This document shows, in pieces, positions 4,082 through 50,755 of a stretch of 57,549 nt of DNA (its first letter is position 1; the number at the start of each line of letters is the position of its first letter). The position numbers and the translations under genes were made by a program. The notes below the pieces were generated by a model that saw only the letters and a program-made list of their open reading frames with translations, made no database searches and was not told where the DNA came from. The stretch lies in IMG/VR virus record IMGVR_UViG_3300029245_000012. One strand, given 5' to 3'. This stretch comes from a virus.

Positions 4082-4450
4082 TCACTCTGTATATGGTGCA
4101 TGTGCGGCTATTGTCTTTATAGCTGCACAATTTGATGTTGTCGTTGTTGTTCCAATTACTTGTGTTAGATTAACACCTGTTTGTATCTTTCCAACATTCT
4201 CCGCCATGATGTCAAAACTATCTGTCGCCTCTGTTGCTACGCCCTTATCAGTGATAGCACTGGCGACTTTAGACTTGCCATCACTGACAGATTTTTTTAC
4301 TTCTGCAACTTCATCTGATATTGTTTTTATACTTTTGTCTATCTTGTCCATGTCTCCTGTGTAATCTGTTCTCCAATCTGGGATATCATCATTACCGAAT
4401 TGGCATAATCCGAGATTTTCTGTTTTATTTTGTGATGCCAAAAAAATCAC
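4082..4450 (-). CDS. fiber-like protein (N-terminal fiber-type motif)
   Basis: NLGLCQFGNDDIPDWRTDYTGDMDKID resembles prophage fiber N-termini. The start may instead be the TTG at 4441. Confidence 0.5.
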   Translation of the reverse strand: MIFLASQNKTENLGLCQFGNDDIPDWRTDYTGDMDKIDKSIKTISDEVAEVKKSVSDGKSKVASAITDKGVATEATDSFDIMAENVGKIQTGVNLTQVIGTTTTTSNCAAIKTIAAHAPYTE

Positions 4451-9100: not shown

Positions 9101-10159
9101 TTGCTCTAATTTGTCTGTGTATTGGCCAAAAGTATTAACAACAACATTCTGCACCTCAGTAAGATCAGATGAAATGTCTATGGCTTTTTTGAATCCACTC
9201 AAAACCCTTTGTGCTGCCCAAAATGCCGCATATAGTTTTCCGACTGCTGAAGCAAGGCTCCATATATGTTTTCTAGCGCTTTTAGCACTGCTGCTCATGC
9301 CGGCAAAACTGTTTTGTATGCCTCTGCTTGCACTTGCCGTTCTACTTCCTTGCGCTGCCAGATTTGCAAGCGCATGAGTCATTTGTATTACATTTTGTGA
9401 CACTTGTGGTGCAGTCGCCATAACTTGCATAAACTTCTTAAGTTCTGCTGCAAGTGCCCCTAGTCCACCTGCTGTTTGTGTGGCTTTTGCACCTACTGAC
9501 GCAAGATTGCCAAGTGCAGTGGTCATCTGTATTGTTCCAGCGGATAATTGTGGTGCAAGCGCCATAGTATTAAACAGATTGCGAAGCGTCACAGATAATT
9601 GCGGTAATGTTGTTGCTACAACGCCTGCTTTTTGTCCGGCATTGGCAAGTCTACCAACTGCATTGGTAAGCTGAATTACATTTGTGCTAACGTTCTGGGC
9701 GCCTTGTAACGTGCTAGATAAGCTTACAATCGCATTTCCAAGCTGACCTATGGCATTTGTATTCATGCCGTTAATGTTCGAGTTAGACAGCCTTGTAATG
9801 GAATTAATGAAGTTCGTAAGGCCCTTGTTGCTGAACTGCATGTTCCCCAGTACTGATATACTAGAGGCAAGTGGGCTTATGCTATTTGCAACCGCTGTAA
9901 GTTTTCCACTATTAATGTTTTCAAATTGCTTTATACCCTTGGCAGCTCTGTTAAAATCAGGCATTTTTACATTTTTTATTGCATTCATGCCCTGTGCAAG
10001 CTGGTTCATGCCTTGTGCAAATTTAGCTATACCATTACTATCAATTCCTTGTAATGTCTTAGATAGTGTGCCGAGCTTATTTGACAGTTTATCTACTGCA
10101 TTAACCGCCTGTGTCGCACTTACATGTATCTTAACTTCAAGATTATCTACTGTTGCCAT
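6155..10159 (-). CDS. tape measure protein
   Basis: 1334 aa with repetitive A/G/N/S-rich helical segments. Position after the chaperone genes. Confidence 0.9.
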   Translation of the reverse strand: MATVDNLEVKIHVSATQAVNAVDKLSNKLGTLSKTLQGIDSNGIAKFAQGMNQLAQGMNAIKNVKMPDFNRAAKGIKQFENINSGKLTAVANSISPLASSISVLGNMQFSNKGLTNFINSITRLSNSNINGMNTNAIGQLGNAIVSLSSTLQGAQNVSTNVIQLTNAVGRLANAGQKAGVVATTLPQLSVTLRNLFNTMALAPQLSAGTIQMTTALGNLASVGAKATQTAGGLGALAAELKKFMQVMATAPQVSQNVIQMTHALANLAAQGSRTASASRGIQNSFAGMSSSAKSARKHIWSLASAVGKLYAAFWAAQRVLSGFKKAIDISSDLTEVQNVVVNTFGQYTDKLEQFSKTSIKTYGMSELSAKQTAGRFQAMGLAMGAPVKDMSDMSIQLTALSADLASFYNISQEESSRKLWSIFTGETEPMRAFGIDLTNATLKEYAMKKGLDANISSMTQLEKTMLRYQYVMDNTKNVQGDFARTSQTWANQLRILQEQIKAVAGVWGNAFVNMLKPLVQALNKALSAVYTFSEKVVNALGAIFGWKLEIQKGSISDDFEGAAGAADDMASGTKKAAKAAKDLKTHLLGIDELNVVEPDKDTGTNGGGGSGGGTGVSGAGGNNGLKYQIKETEGLYKSSIKNLNQLGKYISDSLSKAMESIKWNKVYKKAKNFGKGLADFLNGLITPRLFSNLGSTIAGAINTALTAGNTFAINFDWKNLGKSLISSITGFLNTWDAGLTGATLSNFAIGICKYVVSAFDTANKDNLWQKLGQKVVDFICGINWGNLVWNLGSLIATMAKEIPKIPLQIYEGVGQAIIDKVFGEGSYSKISNSKLFKGIKKALEYIIAPMNLIVDIINKIKSGVSKLSPYTDKVLTVLKPALSTVSNLLSTIYSVISKVAGAIGGKISPALNSIKTVLSPILSVASAISSVIRQLIGNWIVKKIADISAKVQIAWDIIKLILNSITEKLKTLWDYLKKITDKLSSVAKFGMKTSPIVGLSGIISNKFNIDTTTNRKTDKDYKKLNKSVRGAISIFDGKNVDYNVDTSVNDNKTDNVATIRNIGKLWSDTWRGKNARYDAQTATNGQLTSSNNILSGIVNRWSSTWKNKTAKYNAQTTINGQNATTGEKLANIASVFSRYWKSKTVKYNAATAVNGTPTTSGSAVKSINDTLQKNFTGKSVQYNIKTQTDESLKKLGENAASQIYMGMSNKEIKFRIKNAPDPIKEAMSGSFSFMPTYATGGFPEDGWFRANQGEIMGKFDNGKSVVANNEQITAGIASGVKQAVDDVLAPYLSQIARNTRETADKDTSINIDGRTLVSETDRRRSRNGHQFTTA

Positions 10160-26486: not shown

Positions 26487-26560
26487 TAGCAGAGATGGGA
26501 TTTGAACCCATGATCTCTAGCTTATGAGGCTAGCGAGCTGCCAGACTGCTCTACTCCGCG
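26487..26560 (-). tRNA. tRNA-Met(CAT)-type (elongator Met or Ile2; C1:U72 mismatch)
   Basis: Hand-folded cloverleaf. Anticodon stem CTAGC/GCTAG, loop CTCATAA, T-arm ATGGG-TTCAAAT-CCCAT. Confidence 0.8.
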
Positions 26561-26798
26561 TAATTATACATACGGCATACTATATAGCCGCATGCCGGGG
26601 CTTGTGATTATTTACTCTGGGAGGAGTATTCAACCGCCTATACGGCTACAGTTGGCATTCTGTAGGCTGATTTTCGCAAAACACTCACCGGACCTGGTGA
26701 CGGTCCTTTATTCAGCATTCCGCTAGTGAGTGAAAGGAGCACAAATGAAACAAACATTTGTCCGGTCAAGGTAAAAGAATTTGAAAACCTTAACCGCA
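26561..26798 (-). ncRNA. structured ~240-nt spacer between tRNAs (candidate ncRNA)
   Basis: At least five hairpins in minus sense: GGTTAAGGT/ACCTTGACC, ACAAATG/CATTTGT, CACTCAC/GTGAGTG enclosing GGACC/GGTCC, CTACAG/CTGTAG and CGGCAT/ATGCCG. Confidence 0.3.
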
Positions 26799-26871
26799 TG
26801 AACGATATGGGACTCGAACCCATGGCCCATAGATTAAAAATCTATTGCTCTCCCAACTGAGCTAATCATTC
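26799..26871 (-). tRNA. tRNA-Lys(TTT)
   Basis: Clean 73-nt cloverleaf: GAATGAT-TA-GCTC..GAGC-A-ATAGA-TTTTTAA-TCTAT-GGGCC-ATGGG-TTCGAGT-CCCAT-ATCGTTC-A. Confidence 0.9.
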
Positions 26872-26966
26872 ATATTCGCCTTGTATGGTCTCAAGGCTCC
26901 CATGGTTAGTCATGGTGGACTGTATAGGTGGAAAGGCTACTTGCGACAACTGCCTATACTCAGTAG

Positions 26967-27038
26967 CGGGGCTAGAGGGATTTGAACCCTCGAATACAGG
27001 AGTCAAAGTCCTGTGCCTTACCACTTGGCGATAACCCT
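26967..27038 (-). tRNA. tRNA-Gln(TTG)
   Basis: Cloverleaf with anticodon arm CAGGA-CTTTGAC-TCCTG and T-arm GAGGG-TTCAAAT-CCCTC. The D-arm resembles E. coli tRNA-Gln. Confidence 0.85.
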
Positions 27039-31019: not shown

Positions 31020-31208
31020 TTATTTTAATATTTTTTCTTCGCGTTCTAATTTTTCAGCAACTGCCAACTTAATAAAGTCGTTTGCGCTATACTTTAAGGC
31101 TTTTATTCGTTCTTTCGTGCCTTTTGCTAATCTGCAATTAATGCGCTCGTATTTATCATCATATTTATAAATAGCCTTTCGCGTTGCCGCGCTTGTTTTA
31201 TATTCCAT
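31020..31208 (-). CDS. ribbon-helix-helix (CopG/Arc-type) DNA-binding protein
   Basis: YERINCRLAKGTKERIKAL...SANDFIKLAVAEKLE fits a strand-helix-helix pattern. Confidence 0.65.
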   Translation of the reverse strand: MEYKTSAATRKAIYKYDDKYERINCRLAKGTKERIKALKYSANDFIKLAVAEKLEREEKILK

Positions 31209-31265
31209 TTTTCCGCCTCCTTTTCACTTGTTGATATATCTATAATATATTGTTGTGCCTTATAT

Positions 31266-31303
31266 GTCAAGTAGATCTATCACAGTCAAGTAGATCTATC
31301 ACA
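31266..31303. repeat. exact 19-bp tandem duplication GTCAAGTAGATCTATCACA x2
   Basis: Read directly. Each unit contains the palindrome TAGATCTA. Confidence 0.9.
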
Positions 31304-31520
31304 CATTAATATAGCGATCCCCTTTTGTTTGCTTTGTGCCTTATATATATTGTACAATTTACAAGCTGTTTTGTGCCTTATATTTGTGTATTATTCCATC
31401 TTGTTTTGTGCCTTATATCGTAGTATCATTTAACCATAGCAAAGAGATAACAACCTTGACAATTCCACATGACAGACATTGACGACTTGCAAGGCAGAAA
31501 ATACAAAGGAGAATAAAAAA

Positions 31521-31634
31521 ATGAGAATAATTAAAATTTATGACAGAGCAACAAAAAGTTATATCGGAGAGGTAAAAGCAAACAAAGATCAGATCAGAAC
31601 AATTGAACATGATTTCATTGTTAAGGAGGTATAA
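31521..31634 (+). CDS. small protein (37 aa)
   Basis: AAAGGAG RBS. First gene of the plus-strand cassette. Confidence 0.45.
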   Translation: MRIIKIYDRATKSYIGEVKANKDQIRTIEHDFIVKEV

Positions 31635-31638
31635 AAAC

Positions 31639-31938
31639 ATGAGATATTATCACAACACACCAACAGGATGTGCCCCAAAATGGGAGCAGATCAGCAAGAC
31701 AACATATAACATTATGTTAGACTGCTACAAAGCAGCCGAGGCAACACCGGAGCAGATCGCACAAAGAATAAAAAAGGAATGTGATCCTGGCGATCCGATT
31801 ATATATGGCCCCGGCGATCCAAAAAACGCCGTGACATGTGAATTTTACATGTCATTTGAAAAAGGCGGCGAATGTCTCATATATGCCAAGTGCGCCGGCG
31901 GTTCAATCCTTGCACCGGCGGACATGTTCAAATTTTAG
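31639..31938 (+). CDS. hypothetical protein (99 aa)
   Basis: ATG after an AAGGAGGT RBS. Confidence 0.6.
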   Translation: MRYYHNTPTGCAPKWEQISKTTYNIMLDCYKAAEATPEQIAQRIKKECDPGDPIIYGPGDPKNAVTCEFYMSFEKGGECLIYAKCAGGSILAPADMFKF

Positions 31939-32032
31939 CCGAAACGCTCCAACTTTCGGAGCGTCAGCCGGGGACGGTCTCCCGGCTCTGATGATGGCAG
32001 ACCGAAAAGAACATATTTTAGGAGGTAACAAC

Positions 32033-32377
32033 ATGAGAAACTACACAGAGGAAATAAGAGCGCAGCACGATGGCAAGATTTACAGAGAGGTAATAACTTT
32101 TACTGATCTGGATAAAAACGGCAACAGGATAGTTGTTGAACTGTTAAGAGGACGCAGAGGAAAGGCGGAATACATCGCCGTTGATGTTACAAGGCTGGAC
32201 GGTGAGGGCGTTTACACCGGTGCAATGGATCTTAATCCACAGGTGGAGAGACAGGAAAGGAACATCAACGGCGTTAAATGTGTTAATTATGTTGTTGTTC
32301 CGGGTTGGCTCCTTGCCCCAACAGTTGAGAACAAAAAGAAAATATTAGACGAGATAGCCCGCCGGGCATTCTCGTAA
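32033..32377 (+). CDS. hypothetical protein (114 aa)
   Basis: ATG at 32033 after TAGGAGGT. Confidence 0.6.
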   Translation: MRNYTEEIRAQHDGKIYREVITFTDLDKNGNRIVVELLRGRRGKAEYIAVDVTRLDGEGVYTGAMDLNPQVERQERNINGVKCVNYVVVPGWLLAPTVENKKKILDEIARRAFS

Positions 32378-32380
32378 AAT

Positions 32381-32428
32381 CGGCAAGAATTAAAGGAATT
32401 TCGGGCGGTTCGATTCCGCCCCTTGCTG
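32381..32428 (+). ncRNA. tRNA-like minihelix 1 (acceptor stem + T-arm, no D/anticodon arms)
   Basis: CGGCAAG-15 nt-GGGCGG TTCGATT CCGCCC-CTTGCTG. Confidence 0.45.
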
Positions 32429-32471
32429 CTACCCGATAGGAGAAATATAAAAATATGGAGGTATTGAGATT

Positions 32472-32741
32472 ATGACCATTTACGAAAAATTAGACACTTT
32501 AACCGCTGGGAAAATCCGCGGAAACTTGGAAAAATTTACATTTATTTATGGGAAAAAGGCTGTTGAAACATTAGGACTTGAGAAAATAAAAGACTTTTCT
32601 TTTTGGGACAATGGGCAAAGTGTAATTATATACACAGGCACGCAAGCGGTTTTTGATTGTAATTACGATTTTTTCTATGGGTTAAAAAGGCTCACAACTT
32701 GTTATAATAAAAGCGGCTTGTTTTTCGAATTTAATAATTAA
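32472..32741 (+). CDS. hypothetical protein (89 aa)
   Basis: ATG after a TGGAGGT RBS. Confidence 0.6.
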   Translation: MTIYEKLDTLTAGKIRGNLEKFTFIYGKKAVETLGLEKIKDFSFWDNGQSVIIYTGTQAVFDCNYDFFYGLKRLTTCYNKSGLFFEFNN

Positions 32742-32752
32742 TATTCTTAATT

Positions 32753-32778
32753 AAGGGCGTACGAGTTGCGCCCTTTTG
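32753..32778 (+). terminator. Rho-independent terminator
   Basis: AAGGGCG-9 nt-CGCCCTT followed by TTTT. Confidence 0.65.
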
Positions 32779-32822
32779 CCGTTCTTGGTGGGCTGTGGCT
32801 GGTTCAATTCCAGCCGGGCGGC
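32778..32822 (+). ncRNA. tRNA-like minihelix 2
   Basis: GCCGTTC-12 nt-GGCTGG TTCAATT CCAGCC-GGGCGGC. Confidence 0.45.
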
Positions 32823-33390
32823 TTTCTGATCTTTGATAATATAATATTGCTATGTCGGCGCTTGTGTGCTATGCTGTTCATGTATAGCCTTATTAGCTGT
32901 ATATTTATATCTAATTGTGTGAATTGTTTGTGCAATTCTATGCAATTATATTGCCTATGGCGGTTTATTAATTGTGCCTGTCTGCTGCCGTTTCTGGTGG
33001 TTGATCTTGTCCGTTTTATATTGCTGTTGTATGAGCAAAAATAACAACGTGTTTATTTGCGTTTTAAGACTTTTCGAGTGTGTGGGCGTGTAAATCTACC
33101 AATAGTGGAACGCAAAACAACGCGTAAAGTTTAGCGCGGTGTCAATGGCATATTATAAGCCTTGTCGGTGGTATTCTTTTACCGTGTGGCTGGTCTCGGT
33201 TTGGGTTATGTCTTACTTTACCACGTTGAAGTGTTTCGATTCTGTTCAAAAATCTGAACAAAACTCGCATGAAATTGAGAAAAAGTTGAGAAAAAATTTT
33301 TTGACCGTCCGAAATTTTCAGAATTATTTGATAGGGGGGGTATACATTAATCCGAATATTTTTTTATAAGAATTTTTGAAAAATTAATTT

Positions 33391-33525
33391 TTATTTTTGA
33401 TTTGATACAATAACAAGAGCTTTGGCAAGATAGTGCGATTGCCCTAACTCTTCTATCAGCTTTTGCCGGGTCATTTCTGGATTGGTTCGTCTTATATACT
33501 TTAATATCTTATCTATGTTATCCAT
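33391..33525 (-). CDS. small protein (44 aa), possible HTH
   Basis: ATGGATAA overlap with the upstream stop. Confidence 0.4.
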   Translation of the reverse strand: MDNIDKILKYIRRTNPEMTRQKLIEELGQSHYLAKALVIVSNQK

Positions 33526-37320: not shown

Positions 37321-38682
37321 CTAAAAGTTCTTTAACTGAATTTCTATATCATCCTTGCCTACAATCACTTTATCAATTATAGTTTTGAGTATAGAGTTTT
37401 TTTGAGACTTGCTGATACCATCCCAGATGTCGGCAAGTTTTTTTATATTTTCATAGACAAATTCTTTTTTCTGCTCATGCTGGCCATTTTTTCTTTCAGC
37501 TGAGATTTTTTCAGTAGTCTCTCTGATCTCAGTCTCCAAAGTCTTAATCATATCCAAAACCATATCATTGCCCTCTGCATACAGGGTGTATAGCCGTTTT
37601 AGCTTTGCTTTTTGTTTTTCGAGCTGGTTAGTCAGTATTTGCAACTTTGTTTCTTTTGCCTTTGGTTTGTATTTTGACAGGTTTATTGAGATTTCGAGTA
37701 TTTCTTGTTCAAATGCTTTTTCAACATCGCTAGCCCACGCTCCGGGATTGTTACAATCAGGATTGTGGTTTGGTAAATAATCCAAGTAACTGTTGTGTGA
37801 GCAACAATATATCTTGTGTATTCCCATTCCGGTTATCTTCTGGTATCGCATTTTACAACCGCATTCCCTGCAATAGCAGAGTCCTGTCAATAAGTGCGGT
37901 TCTGTATAACAGTATATGTGTTGTTTACGCCTACTTTTTCTCAACTCCTGAGCAAGATAAAATTTTTCACGATCGAATATTGGCTCATGCAGTCCTTTAT
38001 ACACGCCTCCCTTGTATGGTATATAGCCAATATTTACAATCCCTGTCATAATACTTCTTACAACAAATTCGCTTTTATATCCAAGCAATCTTTGTATCTT
38101 AACATCCGACATGCCGTCTATAAACAAATCCATAGCTCTGTTAGCCTGTTCAGCACGTTCAGGAATCGGTACAAGATAACCAAGGTTCTTGTCGTATCGG
38201 TAACAGTATGGCGTATTGCCACCACCCATCCAGTAACCATTTTTAACTCTCTCTAGCATACCGCCACGCATTCTGAGCAACATTGTGTTTCTATCGTATT
38301 CAGCAACTGCCGCCATAATATGTGTTTGGAACTTGTCTTGCGGTGTTTCGTATCTTGCAAAATCGTGTACGCTATTAACTCTGACACCTTTCGGTGTAAA
38401 GAGTTTCTCAATCATGTATAATGCATCTACTGAATCCCTTGCTAGCCTGTCCAGCTTATATACTACTATGTTGTTTATTTTTGATATGTCCGATATAAGC
38501 CGTTGCAGTTCAACACGCTTGCTCATATCCATCCCAGATAGTCCAGCATCAATATACCAATCAGTGATTAGCATTTCATTTTTCTTGCAATATTCCTCAA
38601 TATCTCTTTTCTGACTTTCAAGGCCGTAGCCCTCTTCAACCTGTCTTTCTGTTGACACTCTTATATATGCCACACATTCCAT
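37321..38682 (-). CDS. int: large serine recombinase (integrase)
   Basis: N-terminal resolvase domain AYIRVSTERQ...YKLDRLARD plus a Cys-rich recombinase/zinc domain and coiled coil. Confidence 0.9.
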   Translation of the reverse strand: MECVAYIRVSTERQVEEGYGLESQKRDIEEYCKKNEMLITDWYIDAGLSGMDMSKRVELQRLISDISKINNIVVYKLDRLARDSVDALYMIEKLFTPKGVRVNSVHDFARYETPQDKFQTHIMAAVAEYDRNTMLLRMRGGMLERVKNGYWMGGGNTPYCYRYDKNLGYLVPIPERAEQANRAMDLFIDGMSDVKIQRLLGYKSEFVVRSIMTGIVNIGYIPYKGGVYKGLHEPIFDREKFYLAQELRKSRRKQHIYCYTEPHLLTGLCYCRECGCKMRYQKITGMGIHKIYCCSHNSYLDYLPNHNPDCNNPGAWASDVEKAFEQEILEISINLSKYKPKAKETKLQILTNQLEKQKAKLKRLYTLYAEGNDMVLDMIKTLETEIRETTEKISAERKNGQHEQKKEFVYENIKKLADIWDGISKSQKNSILKTIIDKVIVGKDDIEIQLKNF

Positions 38683-39040
38683 TTTTATTGTCCTCCTACG
38701 TAAAATGTGCCGCATATACACTACATTCTACGGCACATTCTACTTGTCATTTATTTACTTGTCAACCAATCATGCTAGCTATTGTTCTCACCACATCATC
38801 AGGCAGAACAATATCAGCAATATTCACTTTCTTACCGTTTTGTGTAACCACAACATTCATCTGCTTTTCCTCCGATACTCCGCCTTTGCCTTTAAACTTC
38901 TGTCTATCAGATACTTGTCAACCGCTCGGCTCTTCGACCTCTCGTTAAACACTTTGCTGTTCCATTCATCGTACACTTTTTTCCACGTTAGGTACCGCTC
39001 ACAGTTTGAATGACAACCAACATATCTATCGGGGCAGTCT

Positions 39041-49651: not shown

Positions 49652-50044
49652 TTATTTCTCTCCGTTCTCTCTAATCGTAAAGGTTATTCCAACCTCTTTC
49701 TGTAATGTATCTATATAGTCCTGCCACTTCACATCTTCGTCAGCAAGGCAAGAAGTTTTAAGCAGAAAGCGCTCAATAAACCTACATAACCTATCATGAC
49801 CAAATCCAAATTCATCGTGCAATGTTGCACATGATAATAAGACCACTGTATCTATCGTGTTCCATTTGACTTTTTGCTCAAATTCACGCATCTTTGACGT
49901 CGGAATTTCAAGTGGGACAAAACATGCTCTACGTTTGGCCAGTTCCTTTTCTGCTTTCTCTATACCCTCACGTTTGATAATCTCTAACAACCAAGCTGCA
50001 CCGGACATTCTGTACTCATGTACTTTTTCATTTGCTTTCGCCAT
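49652..50044 (-). CDS. hypothetical protein
   Basis: 130-aa ORF. Confidence 0.6.
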   Translation of the reverse strand: MAKANEKVHEYRMSGAAWLLEIIKREGIEKAEKELAKRRACFVPLEIPTSKMREFEQKVKWNTIDTVVLLSCATLHDEFGFGHDRLCRFIERFLLKTSCLADEDVKWQDYIDTLQKEVGITFTIRENGEK

Positions 50045-50065: not shown

Positions 50066-50755
50066 TTAAAATGGACATTCGTCCTTTGCTCTCAACTGCC
50101 ATTCCACTCCGGCTCTTGCAACGTCCACATTTGCGTTTTTAGCCACTTCACGTATTTCAGCAACCATTCTGTCGGCATTGCTTGTATCAATGCCCATATG
50201 GCACAATATGACGTTCTGTAGGCTATCTGTAGCATTCACCTTGACAAATTCCTTACAAGTGGTTAATTCACAGTGACCGAGTATCTTATGAGTGTAATTC
50301 GGAGCATCAGTATCAACCATATCTTTGATGTAATTACATTCAATTAACATATGATCGATATTTTGCTTTTTAAATGTAACCGGGCAATACTCAAAATCCG
50401 TCATGTACAACATTTTTTGCCCATCAATTTTGATCAAAAATCCGTAATTTGGAGTACCGTTGTGTGGGAGAGAAAAACAACGAATTGTAAACTCTCCCAT
50501 TTTTACCGCCTTACTAACAGATTCAAACGGTTTCCACACCGGTATACCCAATTTTTTCAAATCAACTGCTGCCTTGATATGATCTCCATGAATATGACTT
50601 AAAATGACACCAGCGACATCTTTAATGTTGTAATTAAGGCTTCTCTGTATATCTTTAATTGACACTCCGCAATCAAGGATAAGTGTTTGATTACTTGCAT
50701 TTGTGAGTAAATAGCAATTACCAATACTGCCAGTAGAAATGCATTTAAGTTTCAT
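50066..50755 (-). CDS. MBL-fold metallo-hydrolase
   Basis: SHIHGDH motif. Confidence 0.75.
   Translation of the reverse strand: MKLKCISTGSIGNCYLLTNASNQTLILDCGVSIKDIQRSLNYNIKDVAGVILSHIHGDHIKAAVDLKKLGIPVWKPFESVSKAVKMGEFTIRCFSLPHNGTPNYGFLIKIDGQKMLYMTDFEYCPVTFKKQNIDHMLIECNYIKDMVDTDAPNYTHKILGHCELTTCKEFVKVNATDSLQNVILCHMGIDTSNADRMVAEIREVAKNANVDVARAGVEWQLRAKDECPF

What the first reader, a model, noticed from the sequence alone, without database searches (positions are those of the whole stretch)
32381..32822. Two tRNA-like acceptor/T-arm minihelices following plus-strand ORFs
The first element is 32381-32428: CGGCAAG / 15-nt linker / GGGCGG-TTCGATT-CCGCCC / CTTGCTG. The second is 32778-32822: GCCGTTC / 12-nt linker / GGCTGG-TTCAATT-CCAGCC / GGGCGGC. 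Both share one architecture: a 7-bp acceptor-like stem stacked on a 6-bp stem with a canonical 7-nt T-loop (TTCRATT), and no D or anticodon arms. The first starts 4 nt after a stop codon. The second follows a terminator. The primary sequences differ while the pairing is kept, which argues for structure. Possible roles are t-element-like RNase P/Z processing or CCA-tagging signals, decoys for tRNA-targeting defences, or 3'-tRNA fragments marking recombination or att junctions.
Basis: partly seen in the sequence, partly recalled or inferred. Interest (0 to 1): 0.65.

Follow-up and report, generated by a model that had tools for sequence, protein, structure and literature searches.

The report
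tRNA-like minihelices punctuating a phage operon
Two short RNA hairpins that copy only the acceptor/T-arm half of a tRNA sit at gene boundaries of a small accessory operon in a gut phage, beside a self-cleaving hammerhead ribozyme, and most likely tell the host's tRNA-trimming enzymes where to cut the phage's multi-gene messenger RNA.

Summary
By a strict definition the window holds two; shuffled windows give 0.009. They belong to a large family in related gut-phage contigs, with at least six sequence types. All share one plan: a 12-13 bp split helix, a GG-containing linker that looks like a D-loop remnant, and an invariant T-loop. Both stems covary (94% of cells paired against 56% when shuffled), and G-U pairs outnumber A-C mismatches 87 to 13, which points to plus-strand RNA. 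They are not tRNA or tmRNA genes. Their 3' halves match no called tRNA gene in 185,579 genomes, so they are not att remnants.

A type II hammerhead ribozyme (31937-32006) lies in the same operon. In relatives, hammerheads and minihelices alternate between small variable genes. Both kinds of element abut or overlap the preceding stop codon.

The best reading (about 50%) is that these are "punctuation" signals cut by host RNase Z and/or RNase P, like plant-mitochondrial t-elements. Cleavage itself is inferred; I had no transcript-end data. The elements also coincide with mosaic recombination joints. Same-plan elements occur in about 40 mycobacteriophages and in a Clostridia genome. I found no published description.

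The parts
31639..31938 (+). ORFa (99 aa, unknown function), the first sizeable gene of the plus-strand island. Its TAG stop (31936-31938) overlaps the first 2 nt of the hammerhead.
   Evidence: no Pfam, PHROG or NCBIfam hit
31937..32006 (+). Type II hammerhead ribozyme with an intact core (CGAAAC ... GUC ... CUGAUGA). Predicted self-cleavage falls between 31965 and 31966. The 3' product would begin 1 nt before the stem I hairpin.
   Evidence: Rfam RF02276, 64.3 bits against a gathering score of 37; fold of the 3' product; conserved in relatives
32033..32377 (+). ORF1 (114 aa, unknown function) with an AGGAGG ribosome-binding site. It is followed by a type A minihelix in 23 of 25 related loci; the other two carry an A/D hybrid.
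   Evidence: no family or PDB hit
32381..32428 (+). Minihelix 1 (type A): 5' strand 32381-32387, linker AATTAAAGGAATTTC 32388-32402, T-arm 32403-32421 (loop TTCGATT 32409-32415), 3' strand 32422-32428. No encoded CCA.
32432..32441 (+). Weak (2-3 bp) counterpart of the small hairpin that follows A/D minihelices 3-5 nt downstream in 78% of distinct contexts. An A-rich spacer, the GGAGG site and the ORF2 start follow.
32472..32741 (+). ORF2 (89 aa, unknown function), the cassette lying between the two minihelices.
   Evidence: no family or PDB hit
32754..32777 (+). Terminator-like hairpin AGGGCGT/acgagtt/GCGCCCT plus a T-run, immediately 5' of minihelix 2. The same hairpin-then-minihelix unit occurs in types B, C, E and F and in a Clostridia genome.
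32778..32822 (+). Minihelix 2 (type B): 5' strand 32778-32784, linker TTGGTGGGCTGT 32785-32796, T-arm 32797-32815 (loop TTCAATT 32803-32809), 3' strand 32816-32822, then TTTCTG.
32986..33000 (+). Second copy of the 5' strand plus linker start of minihelix 2 (TGCCGTTTCTGGTGG) with no T-arm. It lies 164 nt past the element in most type B loci. Meaning unknown.

Best explanation
The two elements are tRNA-derived 'minihelices': RNA mimics of the coaxial acceptor/T-arm half of a tRNA, including the T-loop and a D-loop-like GG linker. They act as punctuation marks in the transcript of a small plus-strand accessory operon of a temperate-type siphophage with a Gram-positive-type lysin (probably a Clostridia phage). 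Proposed mechanism (inferred, not shown): the folded minihelix is recognised by the host's tRNA-maturation endonucleases. RNase Z would cut just 3' of the helix. The elements carry no CCA, like the phage's own three tRNA genes. RNase P could cut at the 5' base of the helix. The polycistronic RNA would thereby be divided into gene-sized pieces. For the intercistronic type (minihelix 1), a 3'-side cut leaves the upstream mRNA ending in its stop codon plus a stable tRNA-like cap. The downstream mRNA would begin 2-4 nt before a small protective hairpin. This is the same outcome a type II hammerhead produces by itself at other junctions of the same operon. For the post-terminator type (minihelix 2), cutting read-through transcripts right after the terminator U-run would recreate the terminated 3' end and detach transcription that runs into the convergent minus-strand genes. 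As a by-product (or a second function), the conserved T-loop and stems act as short homologies at which gene modules are exchanged.
For: SHOWN. (1) The structure is selected at the level of plus-strand RNA. In 55 distinct elements of five types, 93.8% of pair cells are standard pairs against 56.3% when shuffled (0 of 500 shuffles reach it) and at most 53% when partners are slid; 11 of 13 pairs change on both sides. A mostly new set of 44 distinct rows gives 93% against 66%. G-U pairs number 87 and A-C mismatches 13. The T-loop G-TTCRATT-C is nearly invariant. (2) Total helix length is held at 12 bp (85 cases) or 13 bp (82 cases) of 225, while the split between T stem and outer stem varies. One variant lost the linker and is a perfect 12-bp hairpin (L048). 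An acceptor + T-stem + T-loop hairpin is the classic model substrate of RNase P (PMC11143913). (3) The linker contains GG in 70 of 73 elements and resembles a D-loop (GUUGGU). (4) Position: in 117 of 119 distinct A/D contexts an ORF's stop codon ends -2 to +10 nt from the helix. Hammerheads in the same contigs behave the same way in 79 of 87 contexts, 61 of them overlapping the stop by 2 nt. (5) Hammerheads and minihelices alternate in arrays between single small variable ORFs. An example is L089: ORF-HHR-ORF-HHR-ORF-minihelix-ORF-terminator-minihelix. Other contigs have hammerhead-only arrays or minihelix-only arrays. Perreault et al. 2011 proposed mRNA processing for hammerheads that flank variable genes in prophages (PMC3088659). 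(6) 78% of A/D 3' flanks carry a small covarying hairpin 3-5 nt downstream, followed by a ribosome-binding site and start codon about 40 nt on. (7) The phage's tRNA-Met, -Lys and -Gln genes lack encoded CCA. (8) Plant-mitochondrial t-elements, defined by the same GGTTCRANYCC motif, direct RNase P/Z cuts at mRNA ends (PMC1920247). INFERRED: that RNase Z/P cut here, and what that does to mRNA stability.
Against: I had no transcript-end, expression or cleavage data; the contigs recovered were all DNA metagenomes. In about 40% of A/D contexts the 5' strand overlaps the stop codon, so an RNase P cut at the helix base would remove part of the stop. That favours RNase Z, or means an RNase P cut is destructive. 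There is no 3' RCCA to help RNase P, and the helix is 13 rather than 12 bp in about half the cases. Post-terminator copies would be transcribed only by read-through. Damaged copies persist in some genomes: an inverted T-loop in L015 and L027, a lost 3' strand in L020, and a damaged 5' strand in L045 and L051. Some relatives carry, at the same junction, a bulged hairpin with a U-run and no T-loop (L026, L039, L069). A T-loop is therefore not indispensable there. The 5' strand of each type was first located by best pairing, which inflates outer-stem pairing somewhat; T-stem counts are free of that bias.
Confidence: 0.5

Rival explanations
1. The primary function is at DNA level. The minihelices are conserved linker sequences (short homologies or hairpin-forming palindromes) at which gene modules are swapped, for example by the phage's RecT-type annealase. 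RNA mimicry would be incidental.
For: Flank clustering shows reassortment at the elements: type A has 2 upstream and 7 downstream sequence clusters; type D has 7 and 5 in 13 combinations; type B has 6 upstream and 1 downstream. L019/L024 carry a hybrid joined inside the T-loop: the 5' half of A with the 3' half of a D-like element. Hairpin-loop inversions occur (L015, L027). The phage encodes RecT and SSB.
Against: A pure recombination linker needs conserved sequence, not compensatory change. Here the stems differ completely between types while pairing, the 12-13 bp length and the T-loop are kept. The G-U to A-C asymmetry (87:13) points to one transcribed strand. Hammerhead ribozymes occupy equivalent junctions, and conserved intergenic elements of any function would attract recombination.
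Confidence: 0.12
2. The minihelices work as RNA but without endonucleolytic cutting. They would be stabilising or insulating caps, or binding sites for another tRNA-recognising factor: CCA-adding enzyme, TruB/TrmA, or SmpB (as a mimic of the tmRNA tRNA-like domain).
For: Acceptor + T-arm + D-loop-like linker is also the plan of the tmRNA tRNA-like domain; the only Rfam signal on the window's two elements is the tmRNA T-arm. The structure is stable (-18 kcal/mol).
Against: There is no G3:U70 alanine identity pair and no tag ORF or pseudoknots. Positional equivalence with self-cleaving ribozymes argues that cutting is the shared function. The same structural features that would recruit these factors also define RNase P/Z substrates.
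Confidence: 0.15
3. The function is coupled to translation. Because the helix starts at or within a few nt of the stop codon, it may modulate termination, ribosome release or re-initiation on the next ORF.
For: 100 of 117 A/D contexts have the helix starting -2 to +3 nt from the end of the stop codon. A terminating ribosome must melt the 5' strand.
Against: Hammerheads show the same stop-codon overlap, so tight packing of a processing element after the ORF explains it. Post-terminator types follow a hairpin rather than a stop codon. The next start codon lies about 40 nt downstream with its own ribosome-binding site.
Confidence: 0.1
4. The minihelices are decoys or sponges for host defence or toxin nucleases, or for modifying enzymes that recognise the acceptor/T-arm of tRNAs.
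For: The operon carries small, variable accessory genes typical of anti-defence regions. The tRNA mimicry is precise.
Against: Most known tRNA-targeting defences act on anticodon loops (my own knowledge, not checked here), and these elements have none. The fixed position at gene junctions and after terminators, and the interchange with hammerheads, are not expected for a decoy. There is no high-copy arrangement: only two per genome.
Confidence: 0.05
5. The elements are relics: partial tRNA genes left by integration (attP/attL/attR cores) or by decay of phage tRNA genes, with no present function.
For: They probably descend from tRNA genes by internal deletion. The 3' half of the mycobacteriophage counterpart is 28/29 identical to a phage tRNA-Thr. 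Partial tRNAs are known attP cores (PMC7230728).
Against: The 3' halves match no ARAGORN-called tRNA in one genome each of 185,579 species. The 5' strand is present and covaries. There are two different elements per genome, neither next to the serine recombinase at 37321-38721. They are conserved across more than 150 contigs with compensatory changes.
Confidence: 0.04

Closest known systems
t-elements of plant mitochondria (Forner et al. 2007, PMC1920247)
   Same: Non-canonical tRNA-like structures that keep the GGTTCRANYCC T-arm motif and an acceptor-like stem. They lie at mRNA boundaries inside longer transcripts, sometimes at or inside the end of the reading frame. RNase P and RNase Z cut them to make mRNA 3' and 5' ends.
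   Different: Those are organellar, roughly 70-nt imperfect cloverleaves, and their ends are mapped experimentally with non-templated C/A additions. These are 39-48 nt with no D or anticodon arm at all, occur in phage DNA genomes, form a covarying multi-type family, share operons with hammerhead ribozymes, and have no end-mapping.
Hammerhead ribozyme arrays flanking variable genes in prophages (Perreault et al. 2011, PMC3088659)
   Same: Same genomic logic and partly the same loci: elements placed between single small genes of changing identity in phage operons, proposed to cut long transcripts into gene-length mRNAs. A type II hammerhead lies in this very operon.
   Different: Hammerheads cut themselves. 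The minihelices have no catalytic core and would depend on host RNase Z/P. Mixed arrays of hammerheads and tRNA-like minihelices were not reported there.
mascRNA / MEN-beta tRNA-like RNAs (Rfam RF01684) and mitochondrial tRNA punctuation
   Same: A tRNA-like fold embedded in a long transcript is excised by RNase P and RNase Z and thereby defines the ends of the neighbouring RNA. RF01684 is the only Rfam model that aligns a whole type D element, and it does so weakly (21.6 bits).
   Different: The score is far below the gathering score of 42.5. Those systems are eukaryotic or organellar and keep an anticodon-like arm.
Non-tRNA RNase P substrates of phages (phi80 M3 RNA, P1/P7 C4 antisense RNA precursor) and acceptor/T-arm model hairpins (reviewed in PMC11143913)
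   Same: This is precedent that phage transcripts are processed by host RNase P, and that an acceptor-stem + T-stem-loop hairpin is sufficient as substrate.
   Different: Those are single regulatory RNAs with a 3' CCA-like end, not a family of intercistronic and post-terminator elements; there is no sequence relation.
tRNA-like domain of tmRNA (RF00023)
   Same: Acceptor stem, T-arm and a stemless D-loop analogue. The T-arms give local Rfam hits (12.6 and 7.9 bits).
   Different: There is no mRNA-like domain, tag ORF, pseudoknots or G3:U70 pair; ARAGORN finds no tmRNA.

Membership tests
Canonical tRNA gene (RF00005) | Cloverleaf with D arm, anticodon arm, T arm and acceptor stem | tested here: not met
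   ARAGORN and Rfam call only the three true tRNAs at 26487-27038. Only 12-15 nt lie between the 5' strand and the T arm.
tmRNA (RF00023) | tRNA-like domain plus an internal tag-encoding mRNA-like domain and pseudoknots; G3:U70 | tested here: not met
   Only 17-nt T-arm local hits, 12.6 and 7.9 bits against a gathering score of 47. ARAGORN finds no tmRNA. Position 3:70 is G-C or C-G.
t-element-type processing signal | Conserved GGTTCRANYCC T-arm motif in a non-canonical tRNA-like fold | tested here: met
   GGTTCGATTCC and GGTTCAATTCC closed by 6-bp stems.
t-element-type processing signal | Acceptor-like stem stacked on the T stem, supported by comparative data | tested here: met
   93.8% of cells paired, 11 of 13 pairs with changes on both sides; total helix 12-13 bp.
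t-element-type processing signal | Located at mRNA or cistron boundaries within a longer transcript | tested here: met
   117 of 119 contexts abut an ORF stop codon; post-terminator types abut the U-run. That the region is one transcript is inferred from gene orientation only.
t-element-type processing signal | Element borders coincide with mapped RNA ends; cleavage by RNase P/Z; non-templated CCA | not testable with these tools
   No RNA data were available; recovered contigs are DNA metagenomes.
attP/att remnant of a tRNA gene | 3' part identical to a host tRNA gene 3' end; no matching 5' strand needed; adjacent to an integrase | tested here: not met
   A degenerate 26-nt pattern covering both 3' halves gave 6 hits in 185,579 genomes, none inside an ARAGORN-called tRNA. 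The 5' strand covaries. The serine recombinase lies 4.5 kb away.
Intrinsic terminator | Uninterrupted GC-rich hairpin directly followed by a U-run | tested here: not met
   The consensus scan flags neither element. Element 1 is followed by CUACCCG. The separate hairpin with a T-run at 32754-32777 fits a terminator by eye, but the scan missed it too (its tail has four Ts where the scan needs five).
mascRNA-menRNA (RF01684) | Reaches the family gathering score | tested here: not met
   21.6 bits against 42.5 for a type D relative; no hit in the window at E<=10.

The most novel reading that the evidence does not exclude
tRNA-derived minihelices are a widespread, so far undescribed class of phage (and possibly bacterial) mRNA punctuation signals. 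They would be functionally interchangeable with hammerhead ribozymes, and through them phages would borrow host RNase Z/P to cut accessory-gene operons into individually stabilised mRNAs. The same short conserved modules would double as joints for swapping gene cassettes. Counterparts in about 40 mycobacteriophages, an Arthrobacter phage and a Clostridia chromosome suggest the principle reaches well beyond this phage group.
Probability: 0.4. Interest if true: 0.8.

Novelty: new variant of a known kind. Interest (0 to 1): 0.68.

Why it matters
What the many hammerhead ribozymes in phage and prophage operons are for has been open since 2011. Here a second, enzyme-dependent kind of element occupies equivalent junctions: stop-codon overlap, gene-sized spacing, variable cargo genes. 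That turns 'ribozymes process phage operons' into a hypothesis that can be tested directly by mapping ends and by swapping a hammerhead for a minihelix. If confirmed, it would show that tRNA punctuation, known from mitochondria and from MALAT1-type RNAs, also operates in bacterial viruses. It would add RNase Z/P to the host factors phages depend on. It would explain a class of conserved intergenic sequence that tRNA finders and Rfam miss. It would also supply compact natural parts (about 40-48 nt) for polycistronic expression in Gram-positive bacteria. Finally, the elements mark the exact borders of exchangeable accessory-gene cassettes, which helps delimit candidate anti-defence genes.

Tried and rejected
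- A possible third T-loop at 31901 (GGTTCAATCC): it lies inside the ORFa coding sequence, has no paired stems in tRNA register, and neither covariance model detects it. I treat it as chance.
- The first covariance model, R1 (types A, D and E only), was too sequence-specific and missed element 2. R2 replaced it.
- MAFFT put the different types out of register. For pair counting I therefore supplied linker-trimmed, T-loop-anchored sequences. The 5' strand was first located by best pairing, which is a bias; T-stem counts are free of it.
- ORFa, ORF1 and ORF2 gave no hit in Pfam, PHROGs, NCBIfam or PDB sequences, so the cargo gives no functional clue.
- The GenBank phage collection holds no close relative of the locus; only the hammerhead matched. 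Element 2 with its flanks had no match.
- I looked up contigs encoding ORF1 hoping for RNA-derived contigs that end at processing sites. Only DNA metagenome contigs came back.
- A 108.6-kb contig that might have been a prophage in host DNA carries different genes to the right of the island instead. The host was not identified.
- Seven literature searches found no description of phage intergenic T-loop minihelices.
- An integron attC-like reading (ssDNA hairpin recombination sites) was considered and rejected: the window shows no tyrosine recombinase (partial Pfam survey), there is no GTTRRRY core, and the invariant loop is a T-loop.
Full report
**1. The observation**

- Element 1: CGGCAAG / 15-nt linker / GGGCGG-TTCGATT-CCGCCC / CTTGCTG. 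It begins 3 nt after the TAA stop of a 114-aa ORF (32033-32377).
- Element 2: GCCGTTC / 12-nt linker / GGCTGG-TTCAATT-CCAGCC / GGGCGGC. It begins directly after a terminator-like hairpin and T-run (32754-32777).

Folded alone, element 1 adopts the proposed structure. Element 2 keeps only its T-arm in the minimum-energy fold.

ARAGORN and Rfam see only three real tRNA genes, far away on the other strand (26487-27038). In permissive Rfam mode the only signal on the two elements is a 17-nt match to the tmRNA T-arm.

I set a strict definition: a G-TTYRANN-C loop, a 6-bp T stem, and a 6-bp outer stem across a 0-20 nt linker, both strands searched. The window then holds exactly these two sites. Dinucleotide-preserving shuffles give 0.009 per window (18 of 2000 with one, none with two).

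**2. The setting**

The window is a siphophage-like genome of about 57.5 kb. It encodes an SPP1-type portal, an E-type major capsid protein, a GH25+CW_7 lysin, a large serine recombinase (37321-38721), RecT, SSB and a C5 methylase. Almost every gene is on the minus strand.

The finding lies in the only sizeable plus-strand island in the interior of the window (about 31479-32822; a few plus-strand ORFs also lie before 1608). The island contains, in order:
- a divergent control region with repeated operator-like sequences
- a 37-aa ORF and ORFa (99 aa)
- a type II hammerhead ribozyme at 31937-32006 (64.3 bits against a gathering score of 37)
- ORF1
- minihelix 1
- ORF2
- the terminator hairpin
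- minihelix 2
- about 570 nt of non-coding DNA running up to the convergent minus-strand genes

The hammerhead starts inside ORFa's TAG stop codon. It should cleave between 31965 and 31966. ORFa, ORF1 and ORF2 have no recognisable family.

**3. A family, not two isolated hairpins**

ORF1 and ORF2 homologues brought in 70 loci from IMG/VR gut-phage contigs of about 50-60 kb.

Most of these loci show two minihelices on the operon strand. I found at least six sequence types.
- Intercistronic:
  - A: CGGCAAG..GGGCGG/CCGCCC..CTTGCTG
  - D: AGCAAG..CCGGGG/CCCCGG..CTTGCT
- After a terminator hairpin:
  - B: GCCGYYS..GGCTGG/CCAGCC..GGGCGGC
  - C: GCTTGC..GGTTGG/CCAGCC..GCAAGC
  - E: GCGTT..CGTGGG/CCTGCG..GATGC
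  - F: CGCGTG..TTCCGG/CCGGGA..GCGCGG

The stems differ completely between types, yet pairing is kept. On 55 distinct elements aligned by the T-loop:
- 93.8% of pair cells are standard pairs, against 56.3% after shuffling (0 of 500 shuffles reach it) and at most 53% when partners are slid by 1-3 columns.
- 11 of 13 pairs change on both sides.

A second, mostly new set aligned by the covariance model gives 93% against 66%.

Two caveats apply. The sequences are related by descent, so the shuffle count is not a probability. The 5' strand of each type was first located by best pairing. The T-stem counts carry neither positional bias.

G-U pairs outnumber A-C mismatches 87 to 13, as expected if the plus strand is the one that folds, that is, RNA made in the direction of the operon.

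The outermost pair is often unpaired. The total helix is 12 bp (85 cases) or 13 bp (82 cases) of 225, although the split varies between 6+6, 6+7, 7+6 and 7+5. One variant lost the linker and is a perfect 12-bp hairpin capped by the T-loop (L048).

The linker contains GG in 70 of 73 elements and often reads like a D-loop remnant (GUUGG, UGGUG). The elements therefore look like tRNAs in which positions 8-48 are replaced by a short D-loop-like strand. This is the acceptor/T-arm 'minihelix' with the elbow contacts possibly retained.

**4. Not att remnants**

I used a 26-nt degenerate pattern covering both 3' halves. It matched 6 places in one genome each of 185,579 bacterial and archaeal species, none inside an ARAGORN-called tRNA. 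Three further points argue against att remnants:
- the 5' strand is conserved and covaries
- the two elements in a genome are not repeats of each other
- the only recombinase gene is 4.5 kb away

Two of the six hits are themselves minihelices.
- A Clostridia MAG has, between two same-strand surface-protein genes, a terminator hairpin followed by CGGCAC / tttggaataca / GGCCGG-TTCGATT-CCGGCC / GTGCCG.
- An Oscillospiraceae MAG has a full-length model hit.

**5. Where the elements sit**

In 117 of 119 distinct A/D contexts, an ORF of at least 45 codons ends -2 to +10 nt from the first base of the helix. In 42 cases the stop codon supplies the first helix nucleotide; in 45 there are 2 nt between.

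About 40 nt downstream lie a ribosome-binding site and a start codon. In 78% of distinct 3' flanks a small hairpin with covarying stem (for example UUA-CCCGG-AUAA-CCGGG) starts 3-5 nt after the minihelix. In the window this hairpin is degenerate.

Hammerhead-like elements in the same contigs behave the same way. 79 of 87 distinct contexts abut an ORF end, and 61 overlap it by 2 nt (TAG gives the ribozyme's first AG).

Mixed arrays exist. In L089 the order is ORF - hammerhead (66.9 bits) - ORF - hammerhead (36 bits) - ORF - minihelix D - ORF - terminator - minihelix F, with spacings of 217-330 nt.
- Many type D/C loci have no hammerhead at all.
- An unrelated gut-phage contig has two hammerheads 580 nt apart and no minihelix.

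Perreault et al. [quoted passage not shown] They proposed that these cut long phage transcripts into gene-length mRNAs (PMC3088659). The minihelices occupy the equivalent positions.

**6. Mosaic joints**

Sequence on one or both sides of the elements is reshuffled among phages.
- Type A: 2 upstream and 7 downstream flank clusters.
- Type D: 7 and 5, in 13 combinations.
- Type B: 6 upstream and 1 downstream.

L019/L024 carry a hybrid joined within the T-loop. L015 and L027 have inverted loops, a DNA hairpin-templated change. The phage encodes RecT. The elements are therefore also places where modules are exchanged. I read this as a consequence of short conserved sequences sitting between genes, but it could be a selected property.

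**7. Mechanism**

Shown:
- a conserved, strand-specific, covarying acceptor/T-arm mimic of fixed helical length
- fixed placement at cistron ends and after terminator hairpins
- positional equivalence with self-cleaving ribozymes
- a small hairpin just downstream
- no encoded CCA in the elements or in the phage's own three tRNA genes

Established knowledge:
- RNase P cleaves hairpins made of acceptor stem + T stem-loop, and also phage M3 and C4 RNAs and some polycistronic mRNAs (PMC11143913).
- Plant-mitochondrial t-elements carrying the same GGTTCRANYCC motif direct RNase P/Z cuts that make mRNA ends, sometimes inside reading frames (PMC1920247).
- From my own knowledge, not checked here: RNase Z processes CCA-less tRNA precursors in Firmicutes, and 5'-proximal hairpins protect mRNAs from RNase J1.

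Inferred:
- Host RNase Z cuts just 3' of the minihelix.
- The upstream mRNA then ends in stop codon + tRNA-like cap, and the downstream mRNA begins a few nt before its protective hairpin.
- This matches what the type II hammerhead does: stem III is left on the upstream piece and stem I starts the downstream piece.
- RNase P may also cut at the 5' base. In about 40% of A/D contexts that would clip the stop codon, so I consider the 3' cut the more likely productive one there.
- For post-terminator elements, an RNase P cut directly after the U-run would give read-through transcripts the same 3' end as terminated ones and would detach RNA running into the convergent genes.

I put this processing model at about 0.5.

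**8. What argues against it**
- No RNA ends were available.
- There is no RCCA.
- Half the helices are 13 bp.
- Damaged copies persist in some genomes.
- At the same junction some relatives have a bulged hairpin with a U-run and no T-loop.

The rivals are listed separately with their tests: DNA-level recombination linkers, uncut caps or binding sites for other tRNA-binding factors, translation coupling, decoys, and relics.

**9. Beyond this phage group**

The T-arm of element 1 matched unannotated intergenic DNA in actinophages.
- In Mycobacterium phage LittleCherry, and in about 40 related mycobacteriophage records that match it, the element lies 2-4 nt after a TAA stop: (T)GCCCG / tatggtgRac / GGGGMGG-TTCGATT-CCKCCCC / CGGGCA. 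Among the four genomes I aligned there is a compensatory C-G to A-U change in the T stem.
- Its 3' half is 28/29 identical to a phage tRNA-Thr. This suggests origin from tRNA genes by internal deletion.
- Arthrobacter phage Soondubu has a looser version (29-nt linker) between a small gene and DNA polymerase I.

I did not survey phages systematically, so the true distribution is unknown.

**10. Comparison and novelty**

The elements work most like t-elements and like tRNA or mascRNA punctuation. They share genomic logic with prophage hammerhead arrays.

They are not tRNA genes, tmRNA, mascRNA-family members, terminators or att cores. Each was tested and failed; see the membership table.

Rfam 15 has no family for them. 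Seven full-text searches found no description.

I class them as a new variant of a known kind: tRNA-like processing signals, here in phage operons, armless, and alternating with ribozymes.

Interest is 0.68. The structure and context are solid and would surprise specialists, and they make the role of phage hammerheads testable. The cleavage itself remains to be shown.

Noticed in passing
window 31937-32006 (+): Type II hammerhead ribozyme (64.3 bits) that starts inside the TAG stop of ORFa and ends 27 nt before the ORF1 start. Relatives carry one or two per operon.
   Followed up: yes
window 31249-31430: Divergent control region between the minus-strand block and the plus-strand island. It has four copies of TTGTGCCTTATAT (31253, 31334, 31371, 31406) and a perfect tandem 19-mer, GTCAAGTAGATCTATCACA x2 (31266-31303). 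These look like operator sites. A near-consensus minus-strand promoter (TTGACA-17-TATTAT) lies at 31270-31242.
   Followed up: no
window 32823-33400: Non-coding DNA after minihelix 2 is 90-99% identical across 23 distinct related loci, more conserved than the neighbouring small genes. Rfam gives no hit. Its function is unknown (ncRNA, origin or other cis site).
   Followed up: partly
window 32986-33000: Direct repeat of the 5' strand plus linker start of minihelix 2 (TGCCGTTTCTGGTGG), without a T-arm, 164 nt past the element in most type B loci. In L007 both copies carry the same G-to-A change. Type C loci lack such a repeat.
   Followed up: partly
L069 3908-3962; also L026, L039, L070; variant in L031: At the junction where other phages have minihelix A/D, these have CCGCCGC / agaggatgccag / CCGG-ACCGATA-CCGG / CGGCGG + TTTTT. 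The shape is the same (outer stem, 5' bulge with GG, inner stem, 7-nt loop) but there is no T-loop motif, and a terminator-like U-run follows.
   Followed up: no
L077 684-725 (Mycobacterium phage LittleCherry, record 49919-49960) and about 40 related phages; L078 655-729 (Arthrobacter phage Soondubu): Unannotated minihelices of the same plan in actinophages, just after a stop codon. Among four aligned genomes there is a compensatory change in the T stem. The 3' half is nearly identical to a phage tRNA-Thr.
   Followed up: partly
L073 6018-6095 (-), Clostridia MAG CAMVFE010000001.1: A terminator hairpin followed by a minihelix (CGGCAC..GGCCGG TTCGATT CCGGCC..GTGCCG), apparently in a bacterial chromosome, between two same-strand genes; the upstream one encodes an Ig/LRR (BspA-type) surface protein. 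The motif may not be restricted to phages.
   Followed up: partly
L015 4349-4396 (same contig as L029); L027 about 4300-4345: Natural variants in which the T-loop is inverted (AATCGAA, AATTGAA) while the stems stay. In L027 the stem has become a perfect 12-bp palindrome. This is the signature of hairpin-templated mutation at DNA level.
   Followed up: partly
L086 about 9940-10010 (+); also L091, L116, L117, L121, L135, L187: Another tRNA-like minihelix near the phages' tRNA clusters: AGCGGT / 17-nt linker / ACAGGG-TTCGATT-CCCTGT / GCCGCT. Rfam did not call it as a tRNA in the loci scanned (L086, L091). It is absent from the window.
   Followed up: no
L126 1981-2048 and 2322-2389 (-); L092 5483-5550; L175 8294-8361: Rfam int-alpA RNA motif hits (45-52 bits) directly next to tRNA genes in relatives' tRNA clusters. 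There is no such hit in the window.
   Followed up: no
window 50066-50755 (-): A 229-aa metallo-beta-lactamase-fold protein whose best PDB sequence match is the anti-Pycsar cyclic-nucleotide phosphodiesterase Apyc1 (7u2r, E 6.6e-5, N-terminal 50 residues only). It may be an anti-defence enzyme. It lies among the replication and recombination genes (RecT, SSB and others).
   Followed up: no
L208 15220-20345: In a 108.6-kb contig that shares this island, the genes to its right differ from the window. They include a sigma-70 region 2 protein, a release-factor-3-like GTPase (531 aa), a phosphopantetheinyl transferase and a Tubulin_2 (TubZ/PhuZ-like) protein.
   Followed up: no
window 31020-31208 (-): The first minus-strand gene next to the control region encodes a 62-aa protein. 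It matches only PHROG families of unknown function (phrog_13890, phrog_31631). By eye its sequence looks like a small ribbon-helix-helix (Arc/CopG-type) regulator, which would fit a Cro-like role; this was not tested.
   Followed up: no
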